Below are positions 1-5,352 of a DNA stretch of 5,352 nucleotides, piece by piece (within the stretch, counting starts at the first letter, position 1; every line of letters starts with the position of its first letter). A program made the translations under genes and the position numbers. The notes beneath the pieces were generated by a model. It saw nothing but the letters and a program-made list of their open reading frames with translations, did not search any database and was not told where the DNA came from. Source of the stretch: a virus (lineage: Duplodnaviria; Heunggongvirae; Uroviricota; Caudoviricetes); the IMG/VR virus record IMGVR_UViG_3300013942_000028, positions 1 through 5,352 of that record. One strand, written 5' to 3'.

Positions 1-1
1 A

Positions 2-103
2 ACTGTTTCATTAGCCGAATGGAAAAAATACCGGGTGCTGCTGATGCGAGTTGATACAGCAGACCCGGACTGGCCTACTCCTCCGGCGACTCAGGCCAGT
101 TGA
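2..103 (+). CDS. Tail fiber assembly protein, C-terminal fragment (5' end lies left of the window); presumed active-orientation partner of the convergent tfa at 75..506
   Basis: Frame 2 is open from the window edge to TGA at 101..103 and reads [33 protein letters not shown]. This matches the lambda Tfa-family C-terminus as I recall it ([15 protein letters not shown]...APDIEWP). Not in the ORF track because no start codon falls inside the window. Confidence 0.6.
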
Positions 104-506
104 TATCTGGTGCGCTGGATATGTCCACAGATTCCAGCGCATCGAGATAATCCAGCCACTCGTTATACTGGGCCTTCTCGTCGTCTGTAAGTCGCCCCAG
201 CGCAGCTTTACCCGGCCACTGCTTGCTGTTTATATACTCATTAGCCTGATCGATACGATACTGTTTTTCAGCTTCAGCTGCTGCGATTTCCTCCTCATGG
301 CTTAAAGGTGGAATGTCTACCCATGCCGGCATTCCATCCTCAGTAGCTCCACGAGTTTTACCCTCTGGTGGCATCCCCGAATATTCAGTGAATGTCTCAT
401 CTGAGACGGCTATGAGATCGTCAGGCCAGTTTCTACTCGCTTCATAAACATCTCTGAGCTCATCAGGGTAGAAAGCGTTATTTAATGCTGAATAAAAATA
501 AGCCAT
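75..506 (-). CDS. tfa: Tail fiber assembly protein (Tfa/gpG/U-like chaperone), alternative copy inside the invertible segment
   Basis: 143-aa ORF ending ...[33 protein letters not shown], the Tfa-family C-terminal motif (W..Y/L....VD.S.APDI.WP). It starts 3 nt downstream of the stop of the tail-fiber cassette on the same strand (translational coupling) and converges on, and overlaps by 29 bp, the other tfa 3' end. Confidence 0.8.
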
Positions 507-509
507 TTA

Positions 510-917
510 TTAATACCCCACAGCAAAATAGTTAAACCCGCCAGCGCCGATGGATGATTCAGCGTTGGTTCCTGTCTGATAAGCGCGTAGCTGGAAATTA
601 GTTCTCGTAAAATCCTGGGCGGTTAACGCAAAACCTTGACCTGTACCCCCAACACTCTGGTCTGTTGCAACAACACATAGCGCCCTGGTTGGAAACGCAA
701 TCGGGAATGATACTGTTTCTGGGGATGTTTTCGTTTTGGCTATTGCCCATTGAAGAATTAACCCGCCTGGCAGGTATTGATACCCCGAATCGGCTCGCTG
801 ATTACCAAATGAAGACATGTCCGGAATCTGTCCGGAACCAGTGCCAACATTTTTTTTTGCCGCATCTCCTAAACCAACGTTTAAGAAAATGCAGAGGTAA
901 CAGCTAACTGGCATCAT
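510..917 (-). CDS. Tail fiber protein C-terminal variable (receptor-binding) cassette, currently in the silent orientation. The ATG at 917 is probably not a real start; the cassette is expected to be expressed only after inversion fuses it to a constant N-terminal tail-fiber segment outside the window
   Basis: Translation contains the side-tail-fiber C-terminal signature ...YLPGGLILQWAIAKT...VSFPIAFPTRALCVVATD..., resembling the Mu S/S', P1 and e14/rac Stf variable domains. The hix-like crossover site lies inside codons ~10-18. An in-frame stop sits just upstream (927..929) and no RBS is evident. Confidence 0.7.
   Translation of the reverse strand: MMPVSCYLCIFLNVGLGDAAKKNVGTGSGQIPDMSSFGNQRADSGYQYLPGGLILQWAIAKTKTSPETVSFPIAFPTRALCVVATDQSVGGTGQGFALTAQDFTRTNFQLRAYQTGTNAESSIGAGGFNYFAVGY
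864..889. other. 26-bp invertase crossover site (hix/gix/cix/pix-like), right-hand copy
   Basis: ATCTCCTAAACC-AA-CGTTTAAGAAAA: two imperfect 12-bp inverted half-sites around a central AA. By my recollection of hixL (TTCTTGAAAACCAAGGTTTTTGATAA) 19 of 26 positions match, including the AAACC-AA-(G/C)GTTT core. Confidence 0.6.
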
Positions 918-944
918 CTCCGGTTTTTATTCAGGGGGATGATC

Positions 945-1520
945 ATGCTTATTGGCTATGTACGCGTGTCAACAAATGACCAGAACACCGATTTGCAACG
1001 TAATGCACTGAACTGCGCGGGATGTGAGCGGATTTTTGAGGACAAAATCAGTGGCACTAAGTCCGACAGACCGGGGCTGAAAAAACTACTCAGGACACTA
1101 TCGGCAGGTGACACGCTGGTTGTCTGGAAGCTGGACAGGTTGGGACGCAGTATGCGGCATCTTGTTACGCTGATAGAAGAGTTGCGCCAGCGTGGCGTGA
1201 ATTTCCGAAGCCTGACTGACAGTATTGATACCAGTACCCCAATGGGCCGTTTCTTTTTTCATGTCATGGGTGCCCCGGCTGAAATGGAACGCGAACTGAT
1301 AGTTGAACGTACCAGGGCGGGGATTGCTGCAGCTCGCGACAAAGGCAGAGTAGGTGGACGCCGTCCTAAGTTGACCACCGAACAGTGGGCACAGATTGGA
1401 CGTTTACTAGAGGCCGGAGAATCAAGACAGCGTATTGCACTGATTTTTGATGTGGGCATTTCTACCATTTATAGAAAATTTCCGGCAAATAAGAGCAGTG
1501 AATCCCCTGAATCAGCATAA
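945..1520 (+). CDS. Site-specific serine DNA invertase (Hin/Gin/Pin/Cin family resolvase-invertase)
   Basis: N-terminus MLIGYVRVSTNDQNTDLQRNA with the catalytic Ser in VRVSTNDQ, the GDTLVVWKLDRLGRS and MGRFFFHVMGA...AEMERELIVERT blocks, and a C-terminal HTH (GESRQRIALIFDVGISTIYRKF). Near-identical in motif order to Gin/Pin/Hin as I recall them. GGGGG at 934..938 is a Shine-Dalgarno 6 nt before the ATG at 945. The track's ATG at 939 is in frame and adds two residues; 945 gives the canonical MLIGYV start. Confidence 0.93.
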   Translation: MLIGYVRVSTNDQNTDLQRNALNCAGCERIFEDKISGTKSDRPGLKKLLRTLSAGDTLVVWKLDRLGRSMRHLVTLIEELRQRGVNFRSLTDSIDTSTPMGRFFFHVMGAPAEMERELIVERTRAGIAAARDKGRVGGRRPKLTTEQWAQIGRLLEAGESRQRIALIFDVGISTIYRKFPANKSSESPESA

Positions 1521-1637
1521 TTTTGATTATCCCTGCAAGTAGACAAATACCGTCATTTTGTGTGAATAACTGTACAACTACACTTAGCTGTTTGTCGGGC
1601 ACAATCACTTCAACATAGGGCGAAGCCTAATCCAATC

Positions 1638-1643
1638 AGGAGG
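1638..1643 (+). promoter_or_regulatory. Shine-Dalgarno sequence of the tail sheath gene
   Basis: AGGAGG 9 nt upstream of the ATG at 1653. Confidence 0.6.
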
Positions 1644-1652
1644 TTCGCCGCT

Positions 1653-2825
1653 ATGGCTCAGGATTACCACCACGGGGTGCGCGTTGTTGAAATCAACGAA
1701 GGCACCCGATCCATTACCACGGTGAGCACCGCCATCGTGGGTATGGTCTGCACGGGCGATGATGCCGATGCAAAAATGTTTCCTCTTAATAAACCCGTGC
1801 TGATCACTGATGTGCTGACTGCCAGCGGTAAAGCGGGTGAGTCCGGCACGCTGGCCCGTTCGCTGGATGCCATCGCTGACCAGGCAAAACCCGTGACCGT
1901 TGTTGTGCGTGTGCCGCAGGGTGAAACGGAAGAAGAAACCACGACCAATATCATCGGCGCAGTGACTGCTGAAGGTAAAAAAACAGGCATGAAAGCCCTG
2001 TTATCTGCCCAGACACAGCTCGGCGTTAAACCGCGCATTCTCGGCGTGCCAGGTCACGATAACAAAGCCGTTGCTACTGAGTTGCTGAGTGTGGCGCAAA
2101 GCCTGCGTGGGTTTGCTTACCTGTCAGCGTATGGCTGCAAGACGGTGCAGGAGGCGATCACTTACCGTGAAAACTTCAGCCAGCGCGAAGGAATGCTGAT
2201 CTGGCCCGACTTTACTGGCTGGGACACGGTGCTGAATGCCGAAGCAACGGCATATGCCACCGCCCGTGCGCTTGGTCTGCGTGCCAAAATTGATGAGCAG
2301 ACTGGATGGCACAAAAGCCTGTCCAACGTGGGCGTGAACGGTGTCACCGGAATTTCTGCAGATGTGTTCTGGGATCTGCAGGACCCGGCAACCGATGCAG
2401 GTCTGCTGAACCAGAACGACGTCACCACGCTTGTGCGTAAAGACGGTTTCCGCTTCTGGGGTTCCCGCTGCCTGAGTGATGACCCGCTCTTTGCCTTCGA
2501 AAACTACACCCGCACGGCGCAGGTGCTGACGGACACAATGGCAGAAGCGCACATGTGGGCAGTGGACAAACCGCTGAACCCGTCGCTGGCGCGCGACATT
2601 ATCGAGGGCATCCGCGCCAAAATGCGCAGCCTGGTCAGTCAGGGGTATCTCATTGGTGGTGATTGCTGGCTGGACGAGTCGGTGAACGACAAAGACACTC
2701 TGAAAGCCGGAAAACTCACCATCGACTATGACTACACGCCAGTGCCGCCACTTGAAAATCTGATGCTGCGCCAGCGCATCACCGATCAGTACCTGGTGAA
2801 TTTCGCCAGCCAGGTCAGCGCGTAA
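1653..2825 (+). CDS. FI: Contractile tail sheath protein (P2 gpFI homologue)
   Basis: 390 aa, close to the P2 FI length. N-terminus [52 protein letters not shown] and internal blocks ([61 protein letters not shown]) match P2 FI from memory. Strong RBS. Confidence 0.95.
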
Positions 2826-2834
2826 GGGGACAAC

Positions 2835-3350
2835 ATGGCTTTACCACGCAAATTAAAACATCTGAACTTGTTTAACGACGGGAACAACTGGCAGGGGATC
2901 GTTGAGTCGCTGACGCTGCCGAAATTCACCCGCAAATATGAGAAGTATCGCGGCGGCGGTATGCCGGGGGCGGTGGATGTGGATCTGGGACTGGATGACA
3001 GTGCACTGGATACAGAATTTTCCATTGGTGGTACTGAACTGCTGCTGTTTAAGCAGATGGGCATATCCACGGTGGATGGCATCCAGCTGCGCTTTACCGG
3101 CTCTATCCAGCGTGACGATACCGGGGAAGTGCAGGCCGTGGAGCTTGTCGTGCGTGGACGTCACAAAGAAGTGGATTCCGGCGAGTGGAAGACGGGCGAA
3201 AGCAACACCACCAAAGTGACCAGTACCAACAGCTACGCGAAGCTGACCATCAATGGTGAGGTGCTCTATGAAGTGGACCTTATCAACATGGTGGAAATTG
3301 TGGACGGTGTTGACCTGATGGAAGCGCACCGCAACGCCCTCGGCCTCTGA
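2835..3350 (+). CDS. FII: Tail tube protein (P2 gpFII homologue)
   Basis: 171 aa starting MALPRKLKHLNLFNDGNNWQG..., the characteristic P2 FII-type N-terminus. It sits immediately downstream of the sheath gene as in P2, with GGGGA 5 nt before the ATG. Confidence 0.93.
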   Translation: MALPRKLKHLNLFNDGNNWQGIVESLTLPKFTRKYEKYRGGGMPGAVDVDLGLDDSALDTEFSIGGTELLLFKQMGISTVDGIQLRFTGSIQRDDTGEVQAVELVVRGRHKEVDSGEWKTGESNTTKVTSTNSYAKLTINGEVLYEVDLINMVEIVDGVDLMEAHRNALGL

Positions 3351-3404
3351 TGTATCTGAACGGCGCGGAATGCCGCGCCAGAACCTAATTTACAGGACAA
3401 CAAA

Positions 3405-3707
3405 ATGAGCGATAAACAGACTGAAAAGACCATTCAACTGGATACCCCCATCATGCGCGGTAAAACAGAAATTACCGAAATTGTGTTGCGTAAACCGCAG
3501 TCTGGTGCGCTGCGCGGCACACGCCTGCAGGCCATTATGGATATGGATGTGAACGCGATGATGACCGTGATCCCCCGCATCTCCAGTCCGGCAGTGACTG
3601 CACAGGAAATCGCAGAGATGGACCCGGCAGATCTCACAGCCATGTCGGTTGAGGTTGTCACTTTTTTGTTGAAGAAGTCGGTGCTTGCCGGTTTACCGAC
3701 AGCCTGA
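3405..3707 (+). CDS. E: Tail assembly chaperone (P2 gpE homologue; lambda gpG analogue)
   Basis: 100-aa ORF between the tube and tape measure genes, the conserved position of E. It contains an in-frame slippery heptamer near its 3' end. Confidence 0.85.
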   Translation: MSDKQTEKTIQLDTPIMRGKTEITEIVLRKPQSGALRGTRLQAIMDMDVNAMMTVIPRISSPAVTAQEIAEMDPADLTAMSVEVVTFLLKKSVLAGLPTA

Positions 3708-3841
3708 CGGTTGACGATCTGGTGGCAGATATCGCCACCATTTTTCACTGGCCGCCATCCGTTACTGACGTTATGCCGCTGACCGAAGTGCTGGAATGGC
3801 GGTATAAAGCGATTCAGAGAAGCGGGGCCAACGATGAGTGA
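3405..3841 (+). CDS. Tail assembly chaperone frameshift product E+E' (frame 0 through 3668, then -1 frame to the TGA at 3839..3841), about 145 aa
   Basis: T TTT TTG at 3662..3668 is in the correct zero-frame register (act-ttt-ttg). The -1 frame from 3668 stays open for 57 codons (VEEVGACRFTDSLTVDDLVADIATIFHWPPSVTDVMPLTEVLEWRYKAIQRSGAND) and terminates 8 nt into the tape measure gene, as described for P2 E/E' and lambda G/GT. Confidence 0.7.
3662..3668 (+). other. Programmed -1 ribosomal frameshift slippery heptanucleotide (X XXY YYZ = T TTT TTG)
   Basis: Seen directly in the sequence, in the required register relative to the E reading frame. Confidence 0.7.
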
Positions 3842-5352
3842 TAACAACCTGCGCCTGCAGGTCATTCTTAATGCGGTTGACAAACTCACCCGCCCATTCC
3901 GTACTGCACAGGCCAGTTCGAAAGAGCTGGCTGGTGCAATCAGAAACTCCCGTGACGCATTAAAGCAACTCAATCAGGCGGGTAACAGCCTGGAAAAATT
4001 TCGCAAGCTGCAGGCCGATAACAAGAAGTTAGGCGACAGGCTGAACTATGCCAGACAGAAGGCTAATTTGCTTAGCTCTGAGCTGGAGGCGATGGAACAA
4101 CCATCACAACGGCACCTTGTGGCTTTAGGTCGGCAAACGCTGGCAGTCCAACGCCTGGAAGAACAACAAAAATATTTGCAGAAGCAAACGGCGCTTGTGC
4201 GTGCAGAACTGTACCGGGCGGGAATTTCTGCGAAAGATGATGCGGGAGCAACTGCCCGTTTAGCCCGTGAAACATCACGTTATAACCAGGAATTGTCGAA
4301 ACAGGAGGCGCGGCTGAAGCGACTGGGTGAAGCTCAGCGCAGGATGAATGCGGCGCGTGCCAGTTATGCCCGTTCGCTGGAGGTGCGCGATCGTATTGCA
4401 GGAGCCGGAGCCACTACCACGGCTGCAGGGCTGGCAATGGGGACGCCAGTGATGGCGGCAGTAAAAAGCTATACCAGCATGGAAGATGCCATGAAAGGTG
4501 TGGCAAAGCAGGTCAATGGTCTGCGTGACGATAATGGAAACCGTACTGCACGTTTTTATGAAATGCAGGATGCCATCAAGGCTGCCAGCGAACAGTTGCC
4601 GATGGAAAACGGTGCGGTGGACTTCGCTGCACTGGTTGAAGGTGGTGCGCGCATGAACGTCGCAAACCCTGACGACAGCTGGGAAGACCAGAAACGTGAC
4701 CTGCTGGCCTTCGCCAGTACGGCAGCAAAGGCGGCAACAGCCTTTGAGCTGCCAGCGGATGAACTGTCAGAAAGTCTGGGGAAAATCGCCCAGCTCTACA
4801 AAATACCTACCCGCAATATTGAACAGCTCGGCGATGCGCTGAACTATCTGGATGATAACGCCATGTCGAAAGGGGCGGACATCATTGATGTCATGCAACG
4901 TCTGGGCGGTGTGGCTGACCGTCTGGATTATCGTAAAGCGGCGGCACTGGGTTCCACCTTTCTGACACTGGGCGCTGCGCCGGAGGTTGCAGCCAGTGCA
5001 GCAAACGCGATGGTGCGTGAATTGTCCATTGCCACCATGCAAAGCAAGAGTTTCTTTGAAGGGATGAATCTGCTGAAACTCAATCCTGAAGTGATTGAAA
5101 AGCAGATGACGAAGGATGCGATGGGAACTATCCAGCGTGTGCTGGAGAAGGTGAACGCACTGCCGCAGGACAAGCGTCTGTCTGCCATGACCATGTTGTT
5201 TGGTAAAGAGTTTGGTGATGACGCGGCGAAACTGGCAAACAACCTTCCGGAACTGCAGCGCCAGCTAAAACTGACAGCGGGCAATGATGCGCTCGGTTCC
5301 ATGCAGAAAGAATCCGACATCAACAAAGACTCACTTTCTGCTCAGTGGTTGC
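3834..5352 (+). CDS. T: Tail tape measure protein (P2 gpT homologue), N-terminal ~506 codons; continues past the window end
   Basis: ATG at 3834 preceded by GGGG 8 nt upstream. I translated the frame by hand and it stays open to the window end with no stop. N-terminus MSDNNLRLQVILNAVDKLTRPFRTAQASSKELAG... followed by Q/L/E/R/A-rich heptad-like stretches typical of tape measure proteins. Position immediately after E/E' is conserved. Confidence 0.9.
   Translation, partial: MSDNNLRLQVILNAVDKLTRPFRTAQASSKELAGAIRNSRDALKQLNQAGNSLEKFRKLQADNKKLGDRLNYARQKANLLSSELEAMEQPSQRHLVALGRQTLAVQRLEEQQKYLQKQTALVRAELYRAGISAKDDAGATARLARETSRYNQELSKQEARLKRLGEAQRRMNAARASYARSLEVRDRIAGAGATTTAAGLAMGTPVMAAVKSYTSMEDAMKGVAKQVNGLRDDNGNRTARFYEMQDAIKAASEQLPMENGAVDFAALVEGGARMNVANPDDSWEDQKRDLLAFASTAAKAATAFELPADELSESLGKIAQLYKIPTRNIEQLGDALNYLDDNAMSKGADIIDVMQRLGGVADRLDYRKAAALGSTFLTLGAAPEVAASAANAMVRELSIATMQSKSFFEGMNLLKLNPEVIEKQMTKDAMGTIQRVLEKVNALPQDKRLSAMTMLFGKEFGDDAAKLANNLPELQRQLKLTAGNDALGSMQKESDINKDSLSAQWL

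What the first reader, a model, noticed from the sequence alone, without database searches (positions are those of the whole stretch)
1..1520. Invertible tail-fiber host-range switch next to a P2-like tail operon
The window holds the right half of a DNA inversion system: a start-less tail-fiber C-terminal cassette (510..917, -), two convergent tfa chaperone genes (2..103 + and 75..506 -), a hix-like crossover site (864..889) and a Hin/Gin-family invertase (945..1520). Inversion would swap which receptor-binding domain and chaperone are fused to and expressed with the constant tail-fiber gene to the left of the window. This class of system is well known (Mu G, P1 C, e14 P), so it is biologically interesting rather than novel.
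Basis: partly seen in the sequence, partly recalled or inferred. Interest (0 to 1): 0.6.

Follow-up and report, generated by a model that had tools for sequence, protein, structure and literature searches.

The report
Invertible tail-fibre switch in P2-like prophage
This is the invertase-proximal half of a well-known kind of phage DNA switch that flips a 1.5-kb segment to change the tip of the tail fibre (and so the host range); it is ordinary, except that this copy's flipping enzyme has an unusual proline at a key residue and may be crippled.

Summary
Window 1..1520 carries the end of one tail-fibre chaperone gene (2..103 +), a second convergent one (75..506 -), a tail-fibre C-terminal cassette (510..876 -, ORF open to 917), a 26-bp crossover site (864..889, centre AA at 876/877) and a Gin-like serine invertase (945..1520; 74% identical to Mu Gin). 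A public E. coli contig is 100% identical to the whole window. It supplies the missing left half: a 465-aa P2 H-type tail-fibre gene holding the second site in inverted orientation, 1547 bp away. Flipping in silico gives an intact 471-aa fibre. Related prophages carry the same segment exactly inverted, with half-sites exchanged at the central dinucleotide. Across 64 phage contigs, 59 have exactly two such sites, and at least five cassette pairs occur in both orientations. Inversion of this kind has been shown experimentally in other E. coli P2-like prophages, so the kind is already known. One point is new. This lineage's invertase has Pro at residue 111 (Hin Leu112, a rotation-interface residue). 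That position is Leu in 120/120 close relatives and all 80 phage contigs, and never Pro in 150 diverse ones. The switch may be locked unless another invertase flips it in trans.

The parts
2..103 (+). 3' end of the tail-fibre assembly (tfa) gene that is currently expressed behind the tail-fibre gene H; the rest lies left of the window
   Evidence: Pfam Caudo_TAP 1e-06. It is the end of the 143-aa ORF L004 8728..9159. The stop codon TGA is at 101..103.
75..506 (-). Second, currently silent tfa gene, convergent with the first and overlapping it by 29 nt
   Evidence: Pfam Caudo_TAP 1.9e-38; phrog_188 5.3e-59. In the flipped relatives L090 and L001 it follows the H gene directly.
510..876 (-). Silent alternative C-terminal (receptor-binding) cassette of the tail fibre, inside the invertible segment
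   Evidence: Gp53-like_C 1e-18. The same sequence forms the C-terminus of full-length H proteins in L001 and L090 (P0122, 471 aa).
877..917 (-). Fixed leader outside the segment that keeps the silent cassette ORF open back to an ATGATG; probably not a real start
   Evidence: The ORF is listed. The same MMPV..YLCIF leader precedes a different cassette in L001. GGAG abuts the ATG directly (read from the sequence).
864..889 (.). Invertase-proximal 26-bp crossover site (two 12-bp half-sites around the central AA at 876/877)
   Evidence: Unique in the window. megablast matches break at 865 and at 880. Half-sites are exchanged at the centre in L001 and L090. The same site is conserved upstream of the invertase in about 75 of 80 IMG/VR loci, and the sequence becomes variable immediately to its left. 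It has the same 26-bp layout as the Mu gix sites.
945..1520 (+). Gin/Pin-type serine DNA invertase (191 aa), Ser9 nucleophile in MLIGYVRVS
   Evidence: Pfam Resolvase + HTH_7; 4e-92 to Gin 3UJ3 and 74% identity to Mu Gin; phrog_125 DNA invertase.
1275..1277 (+). Codon 111, CCG (Pro) where relatives have CTG (Leu); equivalent to Hin Leu112 / gamma-delta resolvase Val114 in helix E
   Evidence: the role of Hin Leu112 is from PMC4513852.
966..1029 (.). Candidate recombinational enhancer: two Fis-core-like 15-mers (966..980 and 1015..1029), centres 49 bp apart, the proximal one 96.5 bp from the crossover centre
   Evidence: Motif scan. Both 15-mers keep their G..C ends in Mu gin. Synonymous variation is reduced in codons 1-40 across 70 distinct genes. 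The geometry matches the hin enhancer as described in PMC3798978. This is an inference, not a demonstration.
1653..5352 (+). P2-type tail operon downstream: sheath 1653..2825, tube 2835..3350, gpE 3405..3707 (with E' frame), tape measure 3834..>5352
   Evidence: Pfam hits; gene table of the identical contig L004.

Best explanation
The region is the invertase-proximal half of a Gin/Pin-type (Din family) site-specific inversion switch. It sits between the tail-fibre genes and the sheath gene of a P2-like prophage of E. coli/Shigella.

The full module, seen in a contig identical to the window, runs in this order: H (constant part) | site | active C-terminal cassette + tfa | convergent silent tfa + silent cassette | site | invertase.

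The proposed mechanism is as follows. The serine invertase binds the two inverted 26-bp sites. It is activated by a Fis-bound enhancer in the first ~90 bp of its own gene. It cuts both sites at the central AA/TT with a 2-nt stagger, rotates one pair of subunits by 180 degrees and religates. That flips the 1547-bp segment, so the last ~115-120 codons of H and the chaperone gene behind it are replaced by the alternative pair, changing receptor specificity. In the window the cassette at 510..876 and the tfa at 75..506 are in the silent position.

Shown here: the gene content, the two sites, the in-frame result of flipping, and natural occurrence of both orientations with exchange at the site centre. 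Inferred from the family: Fis/enhancer dependence, the cleavage chemistry and the host-range effect.

This lineage's invertase carries L111P, so the switch may now flip poorly, not at all, or only in trans.
For: - **Domains.** (Pfam; PHROGs; Gin 4e-92).
- **Left half.** L004 is 100% identical over 5352 bases. It contains H at 7337..8734 and the inverted site at 8373..8398, and shows exactly two sites in 20.6 kb.
- **In-frame flip.** In-silico inversion gives an intact 471-aa H. A 95%-identical, full-length natural version exists (P0122) and is encoded in the flipped arrangement in L090/L091.
- **Half-site exchange.** Half-sites are swapped at the central dinucleotide in L001 versus L002/L004.
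- **Census of complete E. coli genomes.** Five genomes have the window orientation and two have the opposite one.
- **Census of phage contigs.** 59 of 64 IMG/VR loci have exactly two sites, and at least 5 cassette pairs are seen in both orientations.
- **Junction position.** The sequence switches from constant to variable exactly at the site across 80 loci.
- **Comparison with Mu.** Same layout, and the same 68-nt distance from site centre to invertase start.
- **Experimental precedent.** Inversion was demonstrated in P2-like prophages of EPEC E2348/69 (PMC4272514). Invertases are common at this P2 hotspot (bioRxiv 10.1101/2024.10.15.618418).
Against: - No read-level evidence from one culture was available.
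- The invertase has Pro111 where 120/120 close relatives and all 80 phage loci have Leu. In 150 diverse representatives the position is L/F/I/M/V in 138 and never Pro. The equivalent Hin Leu112 is part of the hydrophobic ratchet of the subunit-rotation interface (PMC4513852).
- Every contig with the Pro111 enzyme in which the segment is visible has the same orientation: L004 (with 7 similar places not shown), L005 and L008.
- No sigma-70-like promoter was found for the invertase gene by the simple scan.
- The Fis sites are only motif-level matches.
Confidence: 0.9

Rival explanations
1. The architecture is that of an invertible switch, but in this lineage it is locked or decaying. The T-to-C change at window 1276 (L111P) places a helix-breaking proline in helix E, at one of the three hydrophobic residues of the rotation interface. 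The enzyme would then no longer complete inversion, and orientation would be fixed unless another Pin-family invertase in the cell acts in trans.
For: - Pro111 is unique among the homologues examined: 0 of 120, 0 of 80 and 0 of 150.
- It is a real, inherited variant, because the identical protein is found on 19 contigs from independent samples.
- The nearest relative (L010) differs at protein level only by L111P and V172I, plus a 1-nt loss in a C-run. The change is therefore recent.
- Hin Leu112 is proposed to gate rotation and ligation. Substitutions at the neighbouring ratchet residues 105 and 109 are poorly tolerated (PMC4513852).
- All Pro111 contigs that span the segment share one orientation.
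- Loss of the invertase is a recurrent fate. Five complete genomes keep the segment and both sites but lack the gene.
Against: - No functional data exist for a proline at this position. Many substitutions at residues 105 and 109 give gain-of-function rather than loss.
- The uniform orientation may simply reflect clonal descent of a few isolates.
- The rest of the gene is intact, with no excess of non-synonymous changes relative to L010 (7 synonymous, 2 non-synonymous).
- The exact post-inversion silent ORF with this leader exists on one 725-nt ENA contig (P0271). It could not be linked to a Pro111 gene.
Confidence: 0.4
2. The 135-aa ORF at 510..917 is an independently expressed small 'gp53-like' protein starting at the ATGATG at 917..912, as automated annotation has it, rather than a silent cassette.
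For: The ORF is open from an ATG. It is annotated as a CDS in RefSeq genomes and in the gene calls of L004. The leader MMPV..YLCIF is conserved in front of different cassettes.
Against: - The leader is the reverse complement of the fixed site-to-invertase spacer. Its conservation is explained by that role.
- The first 17 residues are replaced by H sequence when the cassette is fused.
- GGAG abuts the ATG with no spacing, and no promoter-like site faces this way.
- The Gp53-like_C domain needs the trimeric fibre shaft upstream in all full-length relatives.
Confidence: 0.05
3. There is no site-specific inversion. The convergent cassette pairs are mosaics left by homologous recombination between phages.
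For: Tail-fibre modules are exchanged between unrelated phages. The same segment sits in two different P2-like backbones, and part of it sits in an e14-like element.
Against: - Orientation differences have breakpoints at the 2-bp centre of a 26-bp site, with reciprocal half-site exchange.
- A Gin homologue is always adjacent, at the same 68-nt spacing as in Mu.
- Inversion has been observed directly in P2-like prophages (PMC4272514).
Confidence: 0.02

Closest known systems
Phage Mu G segment / Gin
   Same: Identical module order: constant fibre part, site, variable part + chaperone, convergent chaperone' + variable part', site, invertase. The sites are 26 bp with a 2-bp core. The distance from site centre to invertase start is 68 nt here and 67-68 nt in Mu. 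The invertase is 74% identical to Gin.
   Different: The segment is 1.55 kb against about 3 kb in Mu. The core dinucleotide is AA/TT rather than GA/TC. The host phage is P2-like rather than Mu-like. The cassettes are Gp53-like_C domains. The invertase has Pro111.
e14 element P segment / Pin (pinE) of E. coli K-12
   Same: An e14-like element (L093, with pinE) shares the currently active tfa + cassette, the site and the invertase 5' region at 93.6% nucleotide identity, in the same layout. Inversion of the e14 segment in culture was shown by sequencing and PCR (PMC4272514).
   Different: e14 is a defective lambdoid element with a truncated tail module. Here the switch sits in an apparently complete P2-type late region.
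Invertible tail-fibre loci of P2-like prophages (EPEC E2348/69; Salmonella Fels-2 Fin)
   Same: Same phage family and same position, between the fibre genes and the sheath gene. Two-variant and four-variant inversions were demonstrated in EPEC P2-like prophages (PMC4272514). A cluster named 'serine-type DNA invertase Fin' is 84% identical to this invertase (P0039). Invertases are frequent in the P2 Z/fun hotspot.
   Different: This copy has only two sites, so two variants and not a shufflon. It also carries the L111P change. Whether it is the same prophage as in EPEC was not checked.
Salmonella Hin / hix flagellar switch and P1 Cin / p15B Min
   Same: Same enzyme family and site architecture. 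An enhancer with two Fis sites lies about 100 bp from the proximal site, inside the invertase gene (PMC3798978). Candidate equivalents lie at 966..1029.
   Different: Hin flips a promoter, not a coding cassette. Min is a multi-site shufflon. Comparison with Cin and Min rests on general knowledge and was not computed here.

Membership tests
Din-family (Gin/Hin/Cin/Pin) DNA inversion system | Small serine recombinase: N-terminal catalytic domain with the serine nucleophile, C-terminal helix-turn-helix | tested here: met
   Pfam Resolvase 9.2e-52 + HTH_7 1.7e-14. 4e-92 to Gin across residues 1-184. MLIGYVRVS with Ser9.
Din-family (Gin/Hin/Cin/Pin) DNA inversion system | Two 26-bp crossover sites in inverted orientation with matching 2-bp cores | tested here: met
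   Window 864..889 (core AA) and L004 8373..8398 (core TT), 1547 bp apart. These are the only two such sites in 20.6 kb. The left site lies outside the window, in a contig 100% identical to it.
Din-family (Gin/Hin/Cin/Pin) DNA inversion system | Both orientations occur, with exchange at the core dinucleotide | tested here: met
   Shown between genomes: L090/L091 and L001 versus L004/L002; reciprocal cassette pairs in IMG/VR loci. Variation within one culture is not testable with these tools.
Din-family (Gin/Hin/Cin/Pin) DNA inversion system | Fis-dependent recombinational enhancer in the 5' part of the invertase gene, about 100 bp from the proximal site | tested here: inconclusive
   Two G-N13-C Fis-core-like 15-mers at 966..980 and 1015..1029, 49 bp apart and 96.5 bp from the site centre. 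They are conserved in Mu gin. Synonymous variation is lower in codons 1-40. The motif is weak, and no binding data exist.
Din-family (Gin/Hin/Cin/Pin) DNA inversion system | Conserved hydrophobic helix-E residues of the rotation interface (Hin Phe105, Met109, Leu112) | tested here: not met
   Phe104 and Met108 are present, but position 111 is Pro. It is Leu in 120/120 relatives and all 80 phage loci, and L/F/I/M/V in 138 of 150 diverse representatives, none Pro (PMC4513852). This bears on activity, not on ancestry.
Din-family (Gin/Hin/Cin/Pin) DNA inversion system | Cross-complementation with other family invertases | not testable with these tools
   Known for Gin, Cin, Hin, Pin and Fin from the literature (general knowledge; Kutsukake 2006 is cited in PMC4272514). 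It needs an experiment.
P2-like (Peduoviridae) late region | Gene order V W J I H G(tfa) ... FI FII E E' T U D ogr | tested here: met
   The gene table of L004 lists GpR, tail S, baseplate V, W/gp25, J, I, H, tfa, sheath, tube, E, GpE, tape measure, GpU, GpD and Ogr/Delta. The window part is confirmed by Pfam.

The most novel reading that the evidence does not exclude
A recent natural L111P substitution (one T-to-C change at window 1276) hits the Hin-Leu112-equivalent ratchet residue of the subunit-rotation interface. It may have frozen this prophage's host-range switch in a clonal E. coli/Shigella lineage. Alternatively it may have produced an enzyme with altered gating, for example cleavage without efficient religation. 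Either outcome would give a natural test of the proposed rotation-gating role of this residue.
Probability: 0.35. Interest if true: 0.35.

Novelty: already known. Interest (0 to 1): 0.22.

Why it matters
The switch itself is textbook biology: phages hedge their bets on host range by flipping the receptor-binding tip of the tail fibre. Confirming it here mainly matters for annotation. The 135-aa 'gp53-like' CDS and the second tfa are silent alternates of the H and G genes, not independent genes. Assemblies of such prophages can legitimately differ in orientation.

The one point of wider interest is the Pro111 invertase. If it is inactive, this lineage has lost phase variation of host range. If it is active or mis-gated, it bears on the ratchet model of serine-recombinase subunit rotation.

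Tried and rejected
- **Exact-match scan for the window's own junction** (60-mer across 858..917) in genome contigs gave 0 hits. The source lineage is not among the species representatives.
- **Exact-match scans for the predicted flipped junction** in metagenome contigs and viral contigs gave 0 hits. This is uninformative, because those collections also lack the unflipped lineage.
- **The repeat finder with an 8-nt seed** missed the crossover sites in L001-L003, because the arms are only about 74% complementary. They were found with a half-site scan and with a 6-nt seed.
I therefore could not test whether a Pro111 gene sits next to a flipped junction.
- **The exact predicted flipped H protein** is not in the 15-billion-protein collection.
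- **The simple promoter scan** found no sigma-70-like site in front of the invertase gene. The terminator-like hits are at chance level.
- **Rfam** gave no match in the window.
- **NCBIfam** has no specific model for these proteins; only distant serine-recombinase families matched, below their cut-offs.
- **Contig ends as a sign of mixed orientation.** I considered whether contigs ending inside the segment (L006 at window 615, L007 at 829) show mixed orientation in those samples. The end positions do not fall where a de Bruijn graph would branch (about 871), so I do not count them as evidence.
Full report
**What is in the window**

- 2..103 (+) is the last 33 codons of a Caudo_TAP tail-fibre assembly protein.
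- 75..506 (-) is a complete 143-aa Caudo_TAP / phrog_188 protein that converges on it, with a 29-nt overlap.
- 510..917 (-) is a 135-aa ORF. Its residues 49-135 are a Gp53-like_C domain, and it aligns to the C-terminal ends of tail-fibre PHROGs.
- 945..1520 (+) is a Resolvase + HTH_7 protein. It hits Mu Gin (PDB 3UJ3) at 4e-92 and is 74% identical to Gin from the Mu record.
- Downstream lie sheath, tube, gpE and tape-measure genes of P2 type.
- The 26-mer at 864..889 (ATCTCCTAAACC AA CGTTTAAGAAAA) is unique in the window and is not expected by chance.

**The missing left half**

Looking up the exact invertase protein returned 19 contigs. One of them, L004 (NCBI assembly GCA_023044015.1), is 100% identical to all 5352 bases of the window; window coordinate = L004 coordinate minus 9056.

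In L004 the gene to the left is a 465-aa P2 H-type tail-fibre gene (7337..8734), followed by the tfa whose end is window 2..103. Inside H, at 8373..8398, lies TTCTCGCATACC TT GGTTTGGGAGAG. This is an inverted, imperfect copy of the window site. The repeat finder reports the pair as 35-nt arms, 74% complementary.

A half-site scan finds exactly these two sites in the 20.6-kb locus, with opposite cores (TT and AA), 1547 bp apart.

**Does flipping make sense?**

Inverting L004 8387..9931 in silico yields an uninterrupted 471-aa H. Its end reads ...DVAGLLAYLGLG|DAAKKNVGTGSGQ...FAVGY, that is, the window cassette. The window's tfa (75..506) follows four bases after the stop. The crossover falls in the codons for the conserved LGLG motif that ends the constant part of H.

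**Do both orientations exist?**

Yes, between genomes.
- The best full-length database match to the predicted flipped H (P0122, 95% identical, full length) is encoded in L090/L091. These are collinear with L004 on the left (96.3%) and on the right (92.7%). They carry L004 8385..9936 in reverse at 98.3%.
- In L001, a different P2-like backbone, the same segment (99.7%) is also reversed.
- The half-sites show the expected reciprocal exchange at the central dinucleotide. L001 has TTTTCATAAACG TT GGTTTGGGAGAG next to the invertase and TTCTCGCATACC TT GGTTTAGGAGAT in H.
- megablast matches of window 1..1650 to E. coli genomes break at 865 and at 880, on either side of the core.
- Among 5426 complete E. 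coli genomes, this cassette pair occurs in the window orientation in five and in the opposite orientation in two.

**How general is it?**

A scan of IMG/VR found at least 597 contigs that encode relatives of the invertase. In the 80 loci kept:
- The sequence TTCTCC(C/T)AAACC AA CGTTTA(A/T)GAAAATGCAG lies at a fixed distance upstream of the gene in about 75. Everything to its left falls into several unrelated families, which is what a recombination junction looks like.
- Of 64 loci with enough upstream sequence, 59 have exactly two sites in the TT...AA arrangement. At least five cassette pairs are seen in both orders.

**Comparison with known systems**

- **Mu.** The Mu record shows the same order (S, U, U', S', gin), 26-bp gix sites, and 67-68 nt between the gixR centre and the gin start, against 68 nt here.
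- **e14.** An e14-like element with pinE shares the active cassette, its tfa, the site and the invertase 5' region at 93.6%.
- **P2-like prophages.** Inversion in P2-like prophages of EPEC E2348/69, and of the e14 segment in K-12, was demonstrated by sequencing and PCR (PMC4272514). A 2024 preprint notes that invertases with adjacent inversions are common in the P2 Z/fun hotspot.
- **Fin.** One homologue cluster at 84% identity is named 'serine-type DNA invertase Fin'.

The kind of system, including in this phage family and host, is therefore already known.

**Enhancer**

Hin's enhancer is a 65-bp element with a Fis site at each end, about 100 bp from the nearest hix site (PMC3798978). Here two Fis-core-like 15-mers (G-N13-C with Y-R steps) lie at 966..980 and 1015..1029. 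They span 64 bp, their centres are 49 bp apart, and the proximal centre is 96.5 bp from the crossover centre.

Both keep their G and C ends in Mu gin. Synonymous-codon variation across 70 distinct genes is lowest in codons 1-40 (0.23-0.45, against 0.5-0.9 elsewhere). This is consistent with an enhancer but is not proof. The motif is weak, and translation-start constraints and shared ancestry confound the signal.

**The unusual residue**

Aligning the invertase with 120 cluster representatives (80-98% identical) shows one position where the window stands alone: Pro111, against Leu in 120/120. All 80 IMG/VR loci also have Leu; only the contigs retrieved by exact identity have Pro. In 150 diverse representatives from a full scan of 1.84 billion proteins, the column reads L 97, F 19, I 10, M 7, V 5, and never P.

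The codon is CCG against CTG in relatives, a single transition at window 1276. The nearest relative (L010) differs by 7 synonymous and 2 non-synonymous codons (L111P, V172I). It also differs by one C in a C-run, which extends the protein from 188 to 191 residues.

Residue 111 corresponds to Hin Leu112 and gamma-delta resolvase Val114 (alignment). Chang and Johnson place Leu112, with Phe105 and Met109, in a ratchet-like hydrophobic surface of the rotation interface that gates subunit rotation and ligation. They note that hydrophobic residues occupy these positions in all small serine recombinases (PMC4513852).

A proline there is likely to disturb helix E, but no experiment covers it. All Pro111 contigs that span the segment share the window orientation. 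That fits a locked switch, but it also fits clonal descent.

Loss of the enzyme does happen. Five complete genomes keep the segment and both sites but lack window 897..1524 entirely.

**Verdict**

This is a two-state Gin/Pin-type tail-fibre inversion module in a P2-like prophage, captured with the window's cassette and chaperone silent. It is a known kind and of low novelty. The only open question worth an experiment is whether the Pro111 invertase still works.

Noticed in passing
window 1505..1508: A run of four C where all close relatives have five. The 1-nt loss shifts the frame at the last codon, removes the usual stop and lengthens the invertase from 188 to 191 residues (…ESP* becomes …ESPESA*).
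   Followed up: partly
L002 6863..6960 (NZ_CP018948) and four other complete E. coli genomes; corresponds to window 897..1524: These prophages keep the invertible segment and both crossover sites, in the window's orientation, but lack the whole invertase gene (junction …ATGCAGAG|ATTTTTCCTGCAAG…). They are orphan switches that could flip only in trans.
   Followed up: partly
window 3662..3668 and 3668..3841: A T TTT TTG slippery heptamer near the end of the gpE gene, with the -1 frame open to 3841 (the 'GpE family' ORF). This is the arrangement of the P2 E / E+E' programmed frameshift.
   Followed up: partly
window 1559..1576: TGT-N12-ACA dyad 77-94 nt upstream of the sheath gene start, resembling the activator (Ogr) site of P2 late promoters. 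The motif alone is not above chance in this window (3 found, 1.7 expected).
   Followed up: no
L060 about 3900..3925; L035, L036, L083, L085 upstream of 4001: In L060 the invertase-proximal site carries the H-gene type outer half-site (GGTATGCGAGAA) within otherwise normal flanks. In four other phage contigs an intact invertase gene has no recognisable site, or only half of one, upstream.
   Followed up: no
L031 1961 and 3344: Two invertase genes (185 and 188 aa) lie 1.4 kb apart on one 6-kb viral contig, each preceded by a crossover site.
   Followed up: no
L006 (starts at window 615), L007 (starts at window 829): Several assemblies carrying the identical invertase have contigs that end inside the invertible segment (5 and 3 contigs of these two types). 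The end points do not match where mixed orientation would break a de Bruijn graph, so the cause is unexplained.
   Followed up: partly
L093 2072..4043 (NZ_CP021726, e14-like element with pinE): The currently active cassette + tfa of this P2-like prophage is shared at 93.6% with an e14-like defective element. The invertible module therefore moves between unrelated phage backbones. The e14-like copy has a frameshifted tfa.
   Followed up: partly
window 877..917 (-): Automated annotation calls the silent cassette as a separate 129-135-aa 'gp53-like domain-containing protein', starting at an ATGATG that lies outside the invertible segment. The same leader (MMPV..YLCIF) is therefore attached to whichever cassette is silent.
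   Followed up: yes
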